A stretch of DNA of 64,000 nt from the human T2T-CHM13v2.0 reference genome, Homo sapiens, in assembly GCA_009914755.4 (NCBI GenBank), contig CP068257.2:25280001-25344000 (forward strand), read 5' to 3'. Shown piece after piece: positions 27,563 through 54,792 of the stretch (positions are counted from its first letter, which is position 1; every line of letters starts with the position of its first letter). Both the position numbers and the translations under genes were made by a program. Below the pieces are notes generated by a model that did not search any database, had not been told where the DNA came from, and saw only the letters and a list, made by a program, of their open reading frames with translations.

Positions 27563-27650
27563 ATATATATATATATATATCACACATATATCCATATATA
27601 TATATCACACATATATATATATATGGAGAGAGAGAGAGAGAGAGAGAGAG
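27563..27650. repeat. (TA)n and (GA)n compound microsatellite, intron 2
   Basis: tgatatatatatatatatatcacacatatatccatatatatatatcacacatatatatatatatggagagagagagagagagagagagag. Confidence 0.9.
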
Positions 27651-42074: not shown

Positions 42075-43674
42075 GAGCTTGGAAACCTAACAAGAAATGG
42101 ATAGTTTTACAGAACTTCATTTTGCAGAGAAGGCTACAAATGAATGTTCTACCGCTTCAAAGACTAATGTTGTGCAGAGGAATTAAAGGATGGCTTCCAG
42201 AAAATCACTTAATGAGGAAAAAAATGTTTTCCATTGTGCACAGCACTGCGCGCTGCTTGGCTCTCCCTAAACTGCCGCCCTCCAGCATCTTTGTTTACAT
42301 GTGGTTTACATTAATGTCCACCCTATGAACCACAAGTGTTTCTCTACTCCAAATTTATCAACACTTTTCCTTCATACCAGGGGTGCCTTAGTAAAAATAG
42401 AAGAATTAGGTAGCGAAGCTGTGTGATTCTAAAGTCTGCAATCCATCATTTAATTTCCTATCCTTGTTCTGTTTGCTTCATTTCATACCATGATTTTACA
42501 TAATACTTCAAAGTTTGTAATCCTTAATCTATTCTGGATGGGTCTCAAATACTTAAAGAATGAGCTTTAGAAGTCAATTCTTACCAGGCATTTAAGAGGC
42601 ACAACTTAAAACTGCCAATCAGAGTCGAGTTGTGACAACTGAGGCTTAGAACTATGCGCAAGCCAGGCCCCAAACCAACCCAGACTTTTTGTGTAAATGT
42701 CACACTAACGTAGTGGTCAAATACTGTGTAAATAGATACTGCGTTCCTCCCTGAGCCTCTGAGCCTTAAAGATCCATTTCTTTGCTTCCCCATAACCATC
42801 TTTCTTAAAAGGGGGAAATGCTGGGAAAACATTTCTTCCTTCTGTCTTGACTCTTCGCCCAGATCTTCTGCACTGGGGCTTCGGAAACATATTCATCCAA
42901 AACCCAAACACGCAAACGGGATGTGACCCTCCCTAGGCGGCGGAGTTGGCCTGGGCAGTGCTTGCGACGCACTGGTCGACTAAGCAAAGGAGTTGTTAAG
43001 GAACCTCACAAGTTTGTCCTCTCATCTGATTGGGTCTCTGTACCCTGCTGGCCCGCCCACATTCCTTCCTTCCCAGGAACTGAGATTCCAAGGTGGACAT
43101 GTAAGAACTCCATTAGGAATCCAACCTGGAAAAAGAGTCCTTGAGAAAGTTTTCTCATCCTCTGTGTAACAGAAGGGGTTCTAGTAAAAAGGTGTGGACA
43201 CTTACAAAAGAAGGTCATCGGATAACAGTGAGTACCGTGAGTGAACCATCCAGCCCTTTCCATTAGGTGGGACAAGGTTATATTTTATTTTCACTGGAAA
43301 GAAGAAGACCCATGATCCCAAAGGCAACTTTGTTTTCCTTCCTTTTCCCCATTTAACTGTATCATTTCCCCAAGCATCCTTGTGCCTTCTTATGTTTACG
43401 TTCCTATGCCACAACACCTCAGACTAGATGACATGCAGCACTACTGGGTCTTCATCATCACCTAAGCAAGTCTTGGCATTTAAGGCAAAAATTTCTGCGG
43501 GGCTAACGTGAATACAGGAGCAGAGTTGAAGGCTGGTTGGATTTCCTGCAAGAAGCAGTTAAACACATCCACAGCTGCAGGAGGTTTGAGGGAGAAGCAA
43601 AGCCACCAGCAAGATTCCCTTCTACCTACCTCCTGATATCAGCGCTGGGACCCCCGCATCCCGGCTGGACCTAC

Positions 43675-44778
43675 CTCCCGAGTAAACAGGATAGCTGCAT
43701 CGTAGTGCTCCTCATGGTCATCTCCCAGCTGGTTGTGTTGGTGCTGCCACTTGCAAAAGTTCTTGAGTGTGGTGGCAGCGTTCTTGCTCACTTCCAGGCT
43801 CTTGTCCTTGTCGCCTAGCACCACCACCTTCACCACGGCCAGGCGGATGTGGTTCTCGATGCTAGCATGGCTGTACAGCCTATTGGCGATGGAGGCCAGG
43901 GTCAGCAGGTAATGCTGCAGGCCCCGGCCATACAACCGCGCCATGGACGCGTCAGCCACCAGAAGCAGCTCCACCTGGCGGGCCCGGGAGATGGAGCGGC
44001 GCCGCCGCCGCCACCACGTCTGCGGTCCTGAGCCCCCAGCGGGCGAGAGAGCGGACTGGTCCAAGAGCTGCGAGGCCAGTGCTGCGCGTCCGCTCGGGTT
44101 GCTGTGCGCCGGAGCATGCTCGTGGGCCTCCGGTGTGGACGCGGGGGTTTCGCAGCTGGCGCGCGGCGGCAGGGCCTCGAAGCTGAAGCCCTCGCGGGTG
44201 TAGACGTGCAGGATCCGTGCGGACCCATCCCCGTACACGCGCCCCTTTTCTTCCTCCGCCCAGGGTCCGCGCAGCAGTGGCTTTAGGGTGTAGCGCGCGT
44301 GCTTGACCGCGAAGAAGCCGTCGAGACCCCCACAGAGGTCAAAGACAGCCAGAGAGCGGGGACTACCGTCCACTGTGCCCCGATAGAAGCAGTGGCTCCG
44401 GTGGCGCCAGGGCGCACTCGTCCCGCCTCCTGCGGGCACGAAGCCAGCAATGCCCACCGAACCATCTCGCTCCAGGTCCAAGAGGAACCTCCGGCCGCCC
44501 GCGTAGACGAGGTAGCCCACCTTGCCGCCGCCGGAGTAGAGTTGGTCGATGTTCTGCACCAGCCCCTTGCTCCTGCGCCGCTGCGCCAGGGGGTGCGGGT
44601 GGCCGGGAGGCTCGGCTCGCTCCTGCACCTCCTCCCCCTGCCGCCGGCTGGGCTGGGCGGCTGCTGCAGCAGTCGGAGGCTGCCCGGCTTTATCCTGGGC
44701 AGGTGTCGCGGCGGGGCCGACCGCGGCCAGGGGCAGGCGGAACGCGCACAGCAGCAGGGACGCCCACCCGAGCAGCAT
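43675..44778 (-). CDS. ADAMTS5: ADAMTS5 exon 1, coding part (signal peptide, prodomain, furin site, start of metalloprotease domain; 368 codons)
   Basis: ATG at 44778..44776 (minus) preceded by gcgcact. Open frame MLLGWASLLLCAFRLPLAAVGP...WWRRRRRSISRARQVELLLVADASMARLYG...HEEHYDAAILFTRE ends at donor CGGGAG|gtaggt (last exon base 43675). The track ORF 43639..44778 extends 12 codons into the intron. Confidence 0.93.
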
Positions 44779-45475
44779 AGTGCGCTGCCCGCGGGGAGGG
44801 GCTGCGCGACTGGGACTTTATGGGTATTTGTTATTTGCTATGAAGTTAACGGGGCGGGGGATGGGGACACACACACACTTGCTTGCAGGATTGAGTCAAG
44901 TGTCGGAGGGAGGGGGGCCCGGCAGCAGCGCCAGCCTGTCCGGGCTGCGGTGCCAGCGTGCGAACTTTTCTTTGTTGCTTGGGAAAATGTTTGGATTCGT
45001 GCTCCAGAAAGAGGTGGGGGGGGGGGGGGGGGGAAGAAAAGATTAAAAAAAAAAAGTCGGATAGTGGAGATTCAGCAAATACGGGAAAAGGAAAAAAACA
45101 AAAACCAAAAAACCACCAAATGCAGGCACGATCGCTGTTTCAAGAAAAGTAAGGAAAGGTACCGCGCACCGGGCTGGCAACTGGTGCGCGCAGCCTCCCG
45201 CCCCCGCGCTGCGCTGGACAAGCCGGCTGTGGAGGTTCCAAGCTCCGGGGCCCACTTCCTTTCTTATTTTGTGGGTTTCCTTGGCTCTGCTGGGACCAGG
45301 AGGAAGGGAAGAAAGAGAGGGGAAAAAGCCGTAAAAATTAAAACAAAAATGCAGGGGGGCAGCCTGAGGCGAGCTGGTGAAGCGGCGTGTCTGTGTCCCT
45401 TCGGCTGCGGTCTCCTCCTGCCCGCCGTCATCCCCAGTCGGCAGCTGCGAGCGCCGAGAGCAGCGCGAGCGCTGT
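44779..45475 (-). other. ADAMTS5: Putative ADAMTS5 5' UTR. The TSS was not determined and its extent is inferred from a TATA-like motif.
   Basis: GC-rich sequence between the ATG and a TATAAAT motif at 45509..45503 (minus). It contains a C18 tract (mRNA sense) and an upstream ATG. The true TSS could lie anywhere in the CpG island. Confidence 0.35.
45016..45033. repeat. G18 homopolymer (C18 on the ADAMTS5 sense strand)
   Basis: 18 consecutive G at 45016..45033, followed by gaagaaaagattaaaaaaaaaaag. Lies about 240 bp upstream of the ATG inside the CpG island. Confidence 0.95.
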
Positions 45476-45502
45476 GAAGATGCGAGGAGGTGGAACAATG
45501 AA

Positions 45503-45509
45503 TTTATAG
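45503..45509 (-). promoter_or_regulatory. TATA-box-like motif (minus strand reads GCTATAAATTC)
   Basis: Plus-strand aatttatagc at 45501..45510 gives TATAAAT on the gene strand, about 725 bp upstream of the ATG. A CCAATTGG (CCAAT/ATTGG palindrome) lies further upstream at 45803..45810. Confidence 0.35.
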
Positions 45510-48500
45510 CGGCATGCCATCCTGCAATGGCAATTTCAACAGTTCGTCACTGCACGCTGCCTCTTAAAGGGAGAGCTTCCCCCACCACTCCCACCCTTCC
45601 CAGTCCGCGCCTAATCAGATGGGGGAGGGCAAAAGAGGAGGGTGATCGAGGAAAGGGAGACGAAGTAGGAGGAAGGGACTGGGACCCGGCGAGGTGGTAG
45701 GAGGGGAGAGGGGAAAATAAAAAGTAATGGGGCAAGAAAAACAGATTTCCTTGGCCACTTTTAAAGCCACAGCGGCTCCGGGTCTGCCTGATATTTCACA
45801 ACCAATTGGGGTTGGCTAACCTTGGCTTACCTCATCTCCTGAACGGGTGTTTTGGTTAAAGTTATTGAGACGTTTCAAGTCTCTCCCTGCCTCCTTCTTG
45901 CCTGCTTTTCTCGCCCTCGGTGGGAAGTTCCTGCCGCAAGTTTTTCCCCTTTGCACACCCGTGCGCTCTGGCCTCGCAGACCGTGCAACTCCATCCACCA
46001 GCCAGAGCTTTTCAGCTTCCCGTGCGTCCCCTAACCACCGCGTTCCCTTCGCTTCCTCCCCTCCGTCCCGGCACCCGGTTTCCTCCCTCCCCATTCTCCA
46101 GCCTCTTGATGCTTTGACGCTCGCCGGATTCGGGCTCCGGGTGACTAACTTCTCCCGGCCACCAGCAGAGCGGCTGGACAGCCAGAGAGCCCAGGGCGCT
46201 TCCTGGCGCGCTGCGGTACCCCGGGGCGAGAACGCCCGCCGCTTGGGAACTCCGCAGCTTTGTCTGCGAACGGCGGGCTCCCAGCTTTCTCCAGCACGCC
46301 TTTCGTCAGGGTCCACAATCTGTCCCTTACTCCCAGCCCACTGGAACTTCCTTTGCTCTAAAAAGGCAGAGCGAGAAAGAGTTAACTCTTAGAGGGAATT
46401 CCGCTCATTTTTTTTCCCTGAAAGATTTTAAAATTTTGCGCTCATACTTTTATTTTTTGCTTAAATGATACTTTAATAATAAATTCCTATATCTGTTTTT
46501 GTCTCTTCTAAAGCAACCACTTATCGCCATAGGCCTTGACCTACCTTCATTCTCAGAAATTCCTTTTAGAAGAAAAAGAATACTTTTGGCGGAAGGAAGA
46601 TTGGTGCTTATTAGTACGCGGGTGACATTATCACTGCTACTCGTTTCCTCTGACCTCTTTGTTTCCTCTAATTATCATTCTAAGAAGGGAGAAGGAAAAC
46701 CCGACGACTTATGGTTAGAAGGTCTACCTTCTACTGTAGGGGTAAGAGCTCCCTCCATGCCCAAATTATTCTTCAGGCTAATTAACTAATGCACCAGTGA
46801 AAAATGAATGTGGTGTAATTTGTACATTTCCATCTTTTTCTACGTATAACTTTGGCTACGCTGGGGATAGCAGGGCGGGTGCCTTAATGGGGCCCCAAGC
46901 TGATCGCTTTCTCTGGGAGGGAACCATGAGGGTCCAGAGCTTGATGGAGGTTCTTAGAGTGGCAATAATCCTCTGGAAGGAATTTCAGAATTGCCCGGCA
47001 ACAATACCCATTGCCGTGTGCCTGGGAACACCCTCTGGAGTCTTGTGAGGGGCAGATGTATCATCTTGTTTTAACTTATAAATAAAGAAATCACTGGGGC
47101 CTTAGGGACACCCAACAGCCCCTGATAGATTCTGAAATACATCAGGACCAGGGAGGAAGTTACTATTGCTGAAGGCCATTGCTTTATAATTCCACAATGC
47201 CTCAGCCTCTCAGTGGCCAGTTGCCCCAGGCCAATGCTAACAGCTGGATGGGTCAGAATAGGAGGTTCCAGCCATTTTCTCTATCCCACCAAGGCCTTTG
47301 AGCCTTGCATTAGCCGTTCTCTTTTGTGGTCCTTGCTTTGCACCTACAAATAGCAAACTTTTATCTTTTTAACCAGTTACAGTGAAAAGGAGTCCAATAT
47401 TTGGCACTAAACACCATTTCTAATACAACCTTGATTCAATAAATTTAACAATTTTGTCATTGTTCATGCCAAAGAATCATTTTAATAGGCATTTTAGGTG
47501 ACAGTGGTTAAAATTTGTTAATTACAATTATTTTCATTCACAGATAGATTTTGTTATTTAGGATTTCAGGAAATTCCAACAGATTCTCTTTTCTTTGATG
47601 GTCTTGAACTCATAACCTCCAGGGATTCTCCCACCTGATGAGACACAGTGACGGCTTGAATTTTCTTCTTAATGAAGCTTTTCTCCTCTTTCACAAACAC
47701 CGTGCTGAATCCTGAATCTGAATATTATGCCTTTAAGTTTAATTATATAGTGACATTTGTACTCAGTTTATTCAAATATTTAAAAATACATGGGGAGAAC
47801 AGGATAGACACAGATAAAGTTCCAAACATGAATATCAAGCACAGAATATTTACTAGAGGTATATATTCACAAGGAAATAAATACTAAATCTTATGAATAC
47901 AATGAATAAATTCTTACATCTCAGAAAATTTCTACTTCGATATAATTTTTTTTTTAGAAAGTAACTTGGACACTTTAGAAACTTCATTTGGTAGTATTTT
48001 TAAAACATTACACTAGTGGATTAGGATGAGCTGCTACGTTGTGGAAAAAATTACTATCTGTCACTCTAAGGAAGTAATTTGCACTGGATAAAAGTAGCTG
48101 AACTTTTTATTTTTACAGTAGAAAGGAAAAATATATTAGCAATCATGTTTAAGCAGAATAACTGCTACTCATTCAAAGTAACAGTTTTATTTGTGCACAT
48201 TTAATGAGAAATTTCCACTGAATTTATAGAGTATATGATCACAAATACCATGATAGATGATTTTACATTTCCCAAAAGGAAGAAGGACTTACTACTCCAG
48301 AATGTTATAATTTATCTTGGAGATCAGGTAGGGCAACTTTCTCCATCTAACTGTGAAAAGCTGAGACCCAGAGGCCAAAATGGCTTGCCTGTGGATAAAA
48401 AAGTCCACTAGTGGCCGAATGTCCTGAAACCTAAATCTCCCAGCTCCTAATTTGGGCTCATTCTACAACACTTCTTACAATGTATCCAGTTTAACAAATA

Positions 48501-54475: not shown

Positions 54476-54528
<53 letters not shown>

Positions 54529-54792
54529 ATATATACATATATACGTGTATATATATATATACGTGTATATATATACATATATACGTGTATATATATATAC
54601 GTGTATATATATACATATATACATATATACGTGTATATATATACATATATACATATATACGTGTATATATATACATATATACATATATACGTGTATATAT
54701 ATACATATATACATATATACGTGTATATATATACATATATACATATATACGTGTATATATATACATATATACATATATGTATATATATATAA
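54476..54792. repeat. Compound tandem repeat: (TA)n, (TG)n, then about 6 copies of a 30-bp unit gtgtatatatatacatatatacatatatac. Intergenic.
   Basis: Plus strand at 54601..54780 repeats acatatatacgtgtatatatatacatatat with 30-bp periodicity. Preceded by (ta)17 and (tg)9. Confidence 0.9.

What the first reader, a model, noticed from the sequence alone, without database searches (positions are those of the whole stretch)
44779..45510. TATA-like element about 725 bp upstream of the ATG implies a long, extremely GC-rich 5' UTR that would contain an upstream ATG/uORF
The only TATA-like motif on the gene strand is GCTATAAATTC at 45509..45503. If transcription starts about 30 bp downstream, the 5' UTR is about 700 nt at very high GC. 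It would include, in mRNA sense, GGGG-ATG-ACGGCGGGCAGG... (ATG at about 45420..45418), opening a short uORF that terminates well before the main ATG. It would also include the C18 tract. The leader would then act as a translational gate, which matters because ADAMTS5 protein and mRNA levels are often reported as discordant.
Basis: inference. Interest (0 to 1): 0.5.

Follow-up and report, generated by a model that had tools for sequence, protein, structure and literature searches.

The report
ADAMTS5 TATA promoter and long leader
The TATA box about 730 bp upstream of the ADAMTS5 start codon sits in a deeply conserved core promoter, so the roughly 700-nt leader with one upstream AUG is very probably real, but it is not GC-rich and nothing here shows that it controls translation.

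Summary
The sequence features are real, with small coordinate errors:
- TATAAAT at 45508..45502 (minus strand).
- Main ATG at 44778.
- A single upstream ATG at 45431, not about 45420. It opens a 55-codon uORF that stops 485 nt before the main ATG.
- C18 at 45033..45016.

"Extremely GC-rich" is wrong. The 697-nt leader is 57.6% GC and folds no better than shuffled sequence.

The TATA box lies at the peak of a block of about 160 bp (88-95% invariant columns). The block is near-identical in the primate window, a whale, an artiodactyl-like species and three rodents, and 89.7% identical in a skink. A conserved Inr-like TTCACAG lies 27-33 nt downstream. Published mouse ChIP amplicons labelled -700 and -1400 relative to the TSS map to those distances from this site in mouse-like rodent loci. 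A TATA-directed start and a long leader are therefore well supported, and are very probably what the reference annotation already shows.

The uATG is present in 7 of 7 mammalian sequences. However, it sits inside the conserved promoter-proximal block, its peptide is not conserved (8-55 codons), and the skink lacks it. C18 is primate-specific, and only a pyrimidine tract is shared. The "translational gate" remains untested. LRP1-mediated endocytosis already explains much of the ADAMTS5 mRNA/protein discordance. This is an ordinary feature of low interest.

The parts
45467..45625 (-). Ultra-conserved core/proximal promoter block of ADAMTS5. It contains a GT/GC-box-like GGGTGGGAGTGGTGGGGG, CCCTTTAAGAGG, a TGACG half-CRE, the TGCCA-N7-TGGCA palindrome, the TATA box and the Inr.
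   Evidence: 88-95% invariant columns in 40-nt bins across primate, whale, artiodactyl-like and 3 rodent sequences. 89.7% identity over 155 nt to skink L017:5300-5452.
45502..45508 (-). TATA box TATAAAT (within GCTATAAATTC, 45510..45500)
   Evidence: Invariant in all 8 species. It is the only TATAWAW on either strand between 40463 and 47077.
45472..45478 (-). Inr-like TTCACAG (matches BBCABW). The predicted +1 is A45475, 33 nt after the first T of the TATA box. An alternative CA lies at 45482/45481, 27 nt after it.
   Evidence: Sequence. It is part of a 22-nt invariant run at 45493..45472 and is conserved in the skink. The TSS itself is inferred, not measured.
44779..45475 (-). Predicted 5' UTR: 697 nt, 57.6% GC, 59% pyrimidine, CpG o/e 0.81, one AUG.
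   Evidence: Fold MFE -223 kcal/mol, z = -0.52. No Rfam match.
45264..45431 (-). uORF. The uAUG is at 45431..45429 (+45 of the predicted mRNA; context CTGGGGAUGA, with G at -3 and A at +4). It has 55 codons and the stop UAA is at 45266..45264. It is out of frame with the main ORF and ends 485 nt upstream of it.
   Evidence: The uAUG is present at +45 in 7/7 mammalian sequences. uORF length is 55, 30, 30, 30, 8, 8 and 28 codons. It is absent in the skink.
45298..45328 (-). First pyrimidine run of the leader (31 nt, CTTTTTCCCCTCTCTTTCTTCCCTTCCTCCT), inside the uORF
   Evidence: A comparable run is present in the whale and in L009/L012.
45016..45055 (-). T11 (45055..45045) and C18 (45033..45016) homopolymers, forming the second pyrimidine tract 238-277 nt before the main ATG
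   Evidence: This is the least conserved part of the leader (23% invariant columns). The tract is T18-20 in the whale and artiodactyl-like sequences and mixed C/T in the rodents. Three assemblies break here (L013, L008, L011).
44935..45006 (-). Second highly conserved block inside the leader (TGGAGCACGAATCCAAACATTTTCC.A..CAACAAAGAAAAGTTCGCACGCTGGCA...)
   Evidence: (27-nt invariant run at 44977..44951). No covariation support for a structure.
44782..44807 (-). Invariant GC-rich hairpin-capable sequence GCGCAGCCCCTCCCCGCGGGCAGCGC, ending 3 nt before the main AUG
   Evidence: 8 predicted pairs that never vary, so the result is uninformative about structure.
44776..44778 (-). Main ADAMTS5 start codon (context GCGCACTATGC, A at -3). 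Exon-1 CDS runs down to about 43663.

Best explanation
The TATAAAT at 45508..45502 is the TATA box of the ADAMTS5 core promoter. Together with the conserved Inr-like TTCACAG it directs focused initiation at about 45481..45475. Exon 1 therefore begins with a leader of about 700 nt. The leader is moderately GC-rich (57.6%) and pyrimidine-rich, is not unusually structured, and contains a single AUG at +45.

That uAUG is in an adequate but not optimal Kozak context. It opens a short uORF that ends hundreds of nucleotides before the main AUG. If the uORF is used, it would capture a fraction of scanning ribosomes. The main ORF would then be reached by leaky scanning and by reinitiation, giving a modest, peptide-independent dampening of ADAMTS5 translation. 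The long leader would add a general eIF4F-dependence.

Shown: the sequence anatomy, its conservation, and consistency with published mouse TSS-relative coordinates.
Inferred: the exact TSS, use of the uAUG, and any effect on protein output. I put about 0.85 on the promoter and long leader. I put about 0.35-0.4 on a functionally meaningful uORF effect.
For: - Conservation peaks on the TATA/Inr block, which is 89.7% identical over 155 nt in a skink.
- The TATA-to-ATG distance is long in all species: 730, 734, 720-722, 792-804 and 590 nt.
- The forward primer of the mouse amplicon labelled -700 (PMC6546747) matches 19/19 in rodent loci at -790/-785 from TATA+33. Its reverse primer maps at about -710..-695. 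The reverse primer of the -1400 amplicon maps at about -1421..-1397. The annotated mouse TSS is therefore TATA-proximal, not ATG-proximal.
- There is one ATG in the 697-nt leader against 5 in the 697 nt upstream. The dinucleotide-shuffle mean is 3.8, P = 0.077.
- The uAUG sits at the identical position and in the identical context in 7/7 mammalian sequences, and always terminates well upstream of the main AUG.
Against: - No direct TSS or transcript evidence could be obtained here. The uORF peptide look-up was empty. The promoter-characterisation paper (PMID 17211519) and PMC3789961 are not held.
- ATG depletion is not significant on its own (P = 0.077), and the other species carry 1-3 uATGs.
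- The uATG lies in a block that is 80% invariant anyway, so its conservation does not demonstrate selection on translation.
- uORF length and peptide vary from 8 to 55 codons, and the skink lacks the +45 uAUG.
- The leader is no more stable than shuffles.
- The polysome and ribosome-profiling studies of chondrocytic cells that I checked do not mention ADAMTS5 in their main text.
Confidence: 0.7

Rival explanations
1. The long leader is real, but the uORF is functionally negligible. The uATG is conserved only because it lies in a promoter-proximal DNA block (+1 to about +60) that is constrained for transcription, for example by factor binding or polymerase pausing. ADAMTS5 mRNA/protein discordance is then explained post-translationally, by LRP1-mediated endocytosis and degradation, pro-domain processing and matrix binding.
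For: - The uATG is part of a 13-nt invariant run inside bins that are 80-82% invariant and continuous with the promoter block.
- The peptide and uORF length are not conserved, and the skink lacks the uATG.
- PMC5449214 and PMC5146981 report that ADAMTS-5 is constitutively secreted and rapidly endocytosed via LRP1, and that this is impaired in OA cartilage.
Against: - A uAUG with G at -3 only 45 nt from the cap is expected, on general scanning-model grounds, to be recognised by a sizeable fraction of ribosomes.
- It has been retained in all three boreoeutherian lineages sampled here (primate, cetartiodactyl, rodent), although single-nucleotide loss would be easy.
Confidence: 0.45
2. Most ADAMTS5 transcripts start much closer to the main ATG, through dispersed CpG-island initiation or a downstream promoter. 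The common leader would then be short and would lack the uATG and C18. The TATA block would serve as an enhancer or a minor promoter.
For: - The whole 43650..46250 domain is CpG-island-like (62% GC, CpG o/e 0.78).
- A second strongly conserved block (45006..44935) and the last 35 nt before the ATG are nearly invariant.
- A CATAAAG lies 44 nt before the ATG.
Against: - CATAAAG is not conserved in L009/L012 or the rodents.
- The published mouse TSS-relative coordinates fit the TATA-proximal start. An ATG-proximal start would put those amplicons near -1500 and -2200.
- A TATA plus Inr at canonical spacing, conserved to a reptile, is the signature of a focused promoter.
Confidence: 0.1
3. An additional upstream start site is used. 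It would be driven by the conserved CCAATTGG (45809..45802) and TTTAAAAG (45765..45758) module. The leader would then be about 950 nt and would also contain the ATGs at 45520 and 45515, making translation of the main ORF even less efficient.
For: - The CCAAT/TTTAAA module is 72-82% invariant in mammals, and 45782..45740 is detectably conserved in the skink.
- A CCAAT box about 45 nt upstream of an A/T-rich box is a classical arrangement.
Against: - The mouse coordinates fit the TATA-proximal site to within tens of nucleotides.
- ATGs occur at normal density upstream of 45475 (5 in 697 nt).
- No Inr-like element was examined or found conserved downstream of TTTAAAAG.
Confidence: 0.1
4. The pyrimidine tracts, and C18 in particular, are the active translational element. 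They would bind poly(C)-binding proteins (PCBP1/2, hnRNP K) or PTB, or act as pyrimidine-rich translational elements, and so gate translation.
For: - A pyrimidine tract lies 255-300 nt before the ATG in every mammal examined. The same is true of a second tract near +148 in the primate and cetartiodactyl sequences.
Against: - The sequence of the tract is not conserved: C18, T20 or mixed. It is the least conserved part of the leader.
- This is the behaviour expected of a mutationally unstable homopolymer, not of a specific protein-binding site.
- No binding data are available.
Confidence: 0.12

Closest known systems
Focused TATA-box/Inr RNA polymerase II core promoter
   Same: It has a consensus TATAAAT, an Inr-like TTCACA 27-33 nt downstream, and very high conservation centred on these elements from primate to squamate.
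   Different: It is embedded in a CpG-island-like domain, whereas many TATA promoters are CpG-poor. The TSS was not measured here. The TATAWAW motif matches, but the eighth base is T rather than the purine of the extended consensus.
Peptide-independent regulatory uORFs that act by leaky scanning and reinitiation (the common class found in roughly half of mammalian mRNAs; established knowledge)
   Same: It has a single cap-proximal uAUG in an intermediate Kozak context. The uAUG is conserved across the mammals sampled. The uORF terminates far upstream of the main AUG, and its peptide is not conserved.
   Different: There is no evidence of ribosome occupancy or of an effect on the main ORF. Only one uORF is present, not the multi-uORF arrangement of ATF4 or GCN4. 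uORF length differs about 7-fold between lineages.
GC-rich, highly structured, eIF4F-hypersensitive leaders (e.g. ODC1, TGFB1; my recollection of established examples)
   Same: The leader is long, about three times my recollection of the typical human 5' UTR length.
   Different: It is 57.6% GC and its MFE is indistinguishable from shuffles.

Membership tests
TATA/Inr focused core promoter | TATA consensus (TATAWAW) on the gene strand | tested here: met
   TATAAAT at 45508..45502
TATA/Inr focused core promoter | Initiator (YR / BBCABW) about 28-33 nt downstream of the first T of the TATA box | tested here: met
   TTCACA with A at 45475 (33 nt), and CA at 45482/45481 (27 nt)
TATA/Inr focused core promoter | Evolutionary conservation of the elements and of their spacing | tested here: met
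   Invariant in 7 mammalian sequences and in the skink
TATA/Inr focused core promoter | Experimentally mapped TSS about 30 nt downstream | not testable with these tools
   There is only indirect support. The mouse amplicons labelled -700 and -1400 relative to the TSS (PMC6546747) map consistently with a TATA-proximal TSS. The 2007 promoter paper (PMID 17211519) is not held.
Regulatory uORF | uAUG with an in-frame stop upstream of, or overlapping, the main ORF within the transcribed leader | tested here: met
   AUG at 45431 and UAA at 45266..45264, 485 nt before the main AUG. This depends on the inferred TSS.
Regulatory uORF | uAUG conserved among orthologues | tested here: inconclusive
   It is present in 7/7 mammalian sequences and absent in the skink. 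It lies in a block that is about 80% invariant regardless, so uAUG-specific selection cannot be shown.
Regulatory uORF | Ribosome initiation on the uAUG and a measurable effect on main-ORF translation | not testable with these tools
   No Ribo-seq or reporter data are available. The literature searches found no paper linking ADAMTS5 with a uORF.
Peptide-dependent (stalling) uORF | Conserved uORF-encoded peptide and length | tested here: not met
   Lengths are 55, 30, 28 and 8 codons, and the sequences diverge after about 5 residues.
GC-rich structured leader (eIF4F/eIF4A-dependent) | Very high GC content and thermodynamic stability beyond what composition predicts | tested here: not met
   GC 57.6%. 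MFE z = -0.52 for the whole leader and +1.59 for the first 120 nt.
Known structured RNA element (Rfam: IRES, riboswitch-like, etc.) | Match to a curated covariance model, or covariation-supported structure | tested here: not met
   No Rfam hit at E<=1 in 44600..46300. The RNAalifold covariation term is +0.29 and only 1 pair has compensatory changes.
Poly(C)/pyrimidine-tract protein-binding element | Conserved C-rich or pyrimidine motif, and binding by PCBP, hnRNP K or PTB | tested here: inconclusive
   The pyrimidine character and position are shared, but C18 itself is primate-only. Binding is not testable.

The most novel reading that the evidence does not exclude
The mammal-wide uAUG at +45 is a genuine translational brake whose strength has diverged between lineages. 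After an 8-codon uORF (two mouse-like rodents) reinitiation would be efficient. After the 55-codon primate uORF, followed by a primate-specific C18 tract that could recruit poly(C)-binding proteins, it would be inefficient. Primate ADAMTS5 would then be much more tightly gated at translation. It might be de-repressed by mTORC1/eIF4F or stress signalling in osteoarthritic chondrocytes. This could contribute to the different relative importance of ADAMTS5 in mouse and human cartilage.
Probability: 0.08. Interest if true: 0.55.

Novelty: new member of a known kind. Interest (0 to 1): 0.22.

Why it matters
ADAMTS5 is a major aggrecanase and an osteoarthritis drug target. If the leader and uORF set its protein output, mRNA measurements would mislead, and the uAUG or leader could be a target for antisense modulation.

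As it stands, the promoter and long leader are ordinary. They are almost certainly what existing annotation and a 2007 promoter study already describe, although I could not read either. A single uORF in a long leader is commonplace.

This check adds four things:
- The deep (amniote) conservation of the TATA/Inr block.
- The presence of the uAUG in every mammal sampled, with a non-conserved peptide.
- The correction that the leader is neither GC-rich nor unusually structured.
- The finding that C18 is lineage-specific.

Tried and rejected
- Literature (10 of 10 searches used). No held paper gives the human ADAMTS5 TSS, TATA box, 5' UTR length or uORF. Thirunavukkarasu 2007 (PMID 17211519) and Kobayashi 2013 (PMC3789961) are not held. 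The one review that mentions both 'uORF' and 'ADAMTS5' does so in unrelated passages. The two chondrocyte translatome papers do not discuss ADAMTS5.
- A metagenome-contig scan with the invariant 20-mer ATTGCCATTGCAGGATGGCA gave 3 chance microbial matches and no orthologues.
- An exact look-up of the 55-aa uORF product, hoping for transcript-derived contigs whose ends would mark the TSS, found nothing on record.
- The sturgeon locus L021 has an incomplete gene model, and no promoter homology was detectable within 8 kb. Conservation beyond amniotes is therefore unresolved. The bird-like loci L014-L016 hold only about 600 nt upstream and gave no blastn hit.
- L010 is a chimeric contig just upstream of the ATG and was excluded. 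L007, L008, L011 and L013 are too short upstream.
- ATG depletion as proof of a 5' UTR was rejected as decisive. The mononucleotide expectation is about 7 by my own arithmetic, but the dinucleotide-preserving shuffles give 3.8, P = 0.077.
- Structure-based gating was rejected.
- The SP1 site quoted at -113..-104 in PMC11228694 would fall on the conserved GT-box near 45591..45582 if +1 is about 45478. The paper gives no sequence, so I did not use it as evidence.
- My recollection of the published NF-kB site coordinates could not be checked and was not used. The only canonical motif is at 45931..45922.
Full report
**What is there.** The minus strand of the window carries exon 1 of ADAMTS5.
- The ORF starting at 44778 reads MLLGWASLLLCAFRLPLAAV... 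and runs to a GT intron at about 43663.
- Its C-terminal part matches the Reprolysin metalloprotease domain.
- Its database relatives include fish proteins that their sources name ADAMTS5, and mammalian exon-1 ORFs at 77-100% identity.

On this strand I confirm the following:
- GCTATAAATTC at 45510..45500, with TATAAAT at 45508..45502.
- The main ATG at 44778..44776, 730 nt after the first T of the TATA box.
- A 55-codon uORF ending with TAA at 45266..45264, 485 nt before the main ATG.
- C18 at 45033..45016, preceded by T11 at 45055..45045.

**What is wrong in the observation.** The leader is not "extremely GC-rich".
- From a start about 30 nt after the TATA box it is 697-700 nt and 57.6% GC. 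The composition is C 35%, T 24%, G 23%, A 18%.
- Only the first 100 nt reach about 70% GC. The segment around 45130..45030 is 36-47% GC.
- The coding part of exon 1 is the GC-rich part, at 68-71%.
- The predicted MFE of the leader is -223 kcal/mol, no better than dinucleotide shuffles (z = -0.52). The cap-proximal 120 nt fold worse than shuffles (z = +1.59).
- Rfam finds nothing in 44600..46300.

**Is the TATA box more than chance?** The motif alone is not convincing. TATAWAW occurs 241 times in the 64-kb window, although only once on either strand between 40463 and 47077. Conservation is the real evidence.

I fetched orthologous loci through exon-1 protein matches. I then aligned 1.4 kb upstream of the ATG from six mammalian loci with the window:
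- a gray whale (L001);
- an artiodactyl-like species (L009 and L012);
- three rodents (L002, L004, L005).

The results were:
- Conservation peaks exactly on the TATA region. The 40-nt bins from 45618 to 45459 have 82-95% invariant columns, and the invariant runs include 45510..45495 and 45493..45472.
- The same block is 89.7% identical over 155 nt in a skink. Window 45619..45467 corresponds to L017:5300-5452.
- In the skink GCTATAAATTCATTGTTCCACCTCCTC.CATCTTCACAGC is almost unchanged.
- TTCACA, which matches the BBCABW initiator, has its A at 45475, 33 nt after the first T of the TATA box. A second CA lies at 45482/45481, 27 nt after it.
- The TATA-to-ATG distance is long in every species: 730 nt (window), 734 (whale), 720-722 (L012 and L009), 792-804 (rodents) and 590 (skink).

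**Independent support for the start site.** No CAGE or cDNA data are reachable with these tools.

Mokuda et al. 2019 (PMC6546747) give primers for mouse Adamts5 promoter amplicons, which they label -700 and -1400 relative to the TSS. Mapped onto the mouse-like rodent loci:
- The -700 forward primer matches 19/19 in L004 and L002, at -790 and -785 from TATA+33.
- Its reverse primer maps at about -710..-695.
- The -1400 reverse primer maps at about -1421..-1397.

The TSS those authors used is therefore within tens of nucleotides of the TATA-directed site. An ATG-proximal TSS would put these amplicons near -1500 and -2200.

A human promoter characterisation exists (Thirunavukkarasu et al. 2007, PMID 17211519, cited in PMC8381022), but it is not held. 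I believe, from general knowledge and not from a tool result, that the reference transcript annotation already carries this long 5' UTR.

**The uATG and uORF.**
- The uATG lies at +45 of the predicted mRNA, in the context CTGGGGAUGA. With G at -3 and A at +4 this is adequate but not optimal. It is identical in all 7 mammalian sequences.
- The uORF is not conserved as a coding unit. It has 55 codons in the window, 30 in the whale and in L009/L012, 28 in L005 and 8 in L004/L002. The peptides diverge after about five residues.
- The skink has no uAUG at +45.
- The uATG lies in bins that are 80-82% invariant and continuous with the promoter block. Its retention therefore cannot be attributed specifically to translation.
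- ATG depletion in the leader is suggestive only. There is 1 ATG, against a dinucleotide-shuffle mean of 3.8 (P = 0.077), and against 5 in the 697 nt upstream. The other species carry 1-3 lineage-specific uATGs.

**C18.** It is not conserved.
- At the homologous place the whale has T20, L009/L012 have T18-20 plus mixed pyrimidines, and the rodents have mixed C/T runs.
- This is the least conserved bin of the leader, with 23% invariant columns.
- Three independent assemblies end in it (L013, L008, L011). This fits an unstable, hard-to-sequence homopolymer.
- Only the pyrimidine character and the position, 255-300 nt before the ATG, are shared.

**Mechanism.** The best-supported reading has two parts.
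- Well supported: a focused TATA/Inr promoter producing a leader of about 700 nt with one cap-proximal uAUG.
- Inferred from the scanning model: some 43S complexes initiate at the uAUG, and the rest leak past it. After termination, the 485-nt spacer allows reinitiation. Reinitiation should be less efficient after 55 codons than after 8. The net effect would be a moderate, peptide-independent reduction of ADAMTS5 synthesis, added to the general cost of a long leader.

None of the second part is shown.

The mRNA/protein discordance that motivated the idea already has a documented post-translational cause. ADAMTS-5 is constitutively secreted and rapidly cleared by LRP1-mediated endocytosis, and this clearance is impaired in OA cartilage (PMC5449214, PMC5146981).

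**Rivals.**
1. The uORF is functionally negligible, and the uATG is conserved as DNA.
2. The dominant TSSs lie near the ATG.
3. An additional upstream TSS is driven by the conserved CCAATTGG/TTTAAAAG module.
4. The pyrimidine tracts are protein-binding translational elements.

Rivals 2 and 3 are disfavoured by the mouse coordinate mapping. Rival 4 is disfavoured by the lack of sequence conservation. Rival 1 remains fully open.

**Comparison and novelty.** The promoter meets the sequence criteria of a TATA/Inr core promoter. The uORF meets the structural criteria of the common leaky-scanning/reinitiation class. It fails the criterion for peptide-dependent uORFs, and the leader fails the criteria for GC-rich structured leaders and for any Rfam element. 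At most this is an undescribed but unremarkable member of a very common class, in a gene whose promoter has been characterised. I score interest low.

Noticed in passing
window 45006..44935 (minus strand): A block of about 72 nt inside the leader is almost invariant across primate, whale, artiodactyl-like and rodent sequences. It includes a 27-nt invariant run at 44977..44951. It begins immediately after the pyrimidine tract, at ...TTTCTGGAG|CAC. It could be an RNA element, a DNA regulatory element or a cryptic 3' splice-site region. No covariation was found.
   Followed up: partly
window 44807..44782 (minus strand): An invariant GC-rich inverted repeat, GCGCAGCCCC-TCCCCGC-GGGCAGCGC, can form an 8-bp hairpin ending 3 nt before the main AUG. 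The pairs never vary in 7 mammalian sequences, so structure is neither supported nor refuted.
   Followed up: partly
window 45833..45758 (minus strand): A conserved module lies upstream of the TATA box. It contains a perfect 5' splice-site-like GAG|GTAAGC (45833..45825), the palindromic CCAAT box CCAATTGG (45809..45802), TGTGGC, and TTTAAAAG (45765..45758). Part of it (45782..45740) is also detectable in the skink. It might be a second promoter or a U1-binding element.
   Followed up: partly
window 45931..45922: This is the only canonical NF-kB motif (GGGAAGTTCC on the opposite strand) found in 44779..47600, at -456..-447 from the predicted +1. It is conserved in the whale and partly in L009/L012, and degenerate in the rodents.
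   Followed up: partly
window 44878..44867; L002, L004 and L005 at the homologous place; L007:1-30: A short (GT)n repeat in the leader, about 90-100 nt before the ATG, is expanded or replaced by a G-rich insertion of about 28 nt in the rodents. L007 begins in a TG/CG repeat there.
   Followed up: no
L013:1, L008:1-46, L011:1-43: Three independent short-read assemblies of orthologous loci terminate inside the homopolymer/pyrimidine tract 240-290 nt upstream of the ATG. This suggests sequencing or assembly drop-out, or length heterogeneity, at this tract.
   Followed up: no
L010:2730-2801: The ENA metagenome contig L010 carries unrelated sequence immediately upstream of the ADAMTS5 ATG. It is an apparent assembly chimera and was excluded.
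   Followed up: yes
window 27563..27624 and 54476..54711: Long (TA)n microsatellites account for much of the excess of TATAWAW matches in the window (241 observed against about 68 expected).
   Followed up: no
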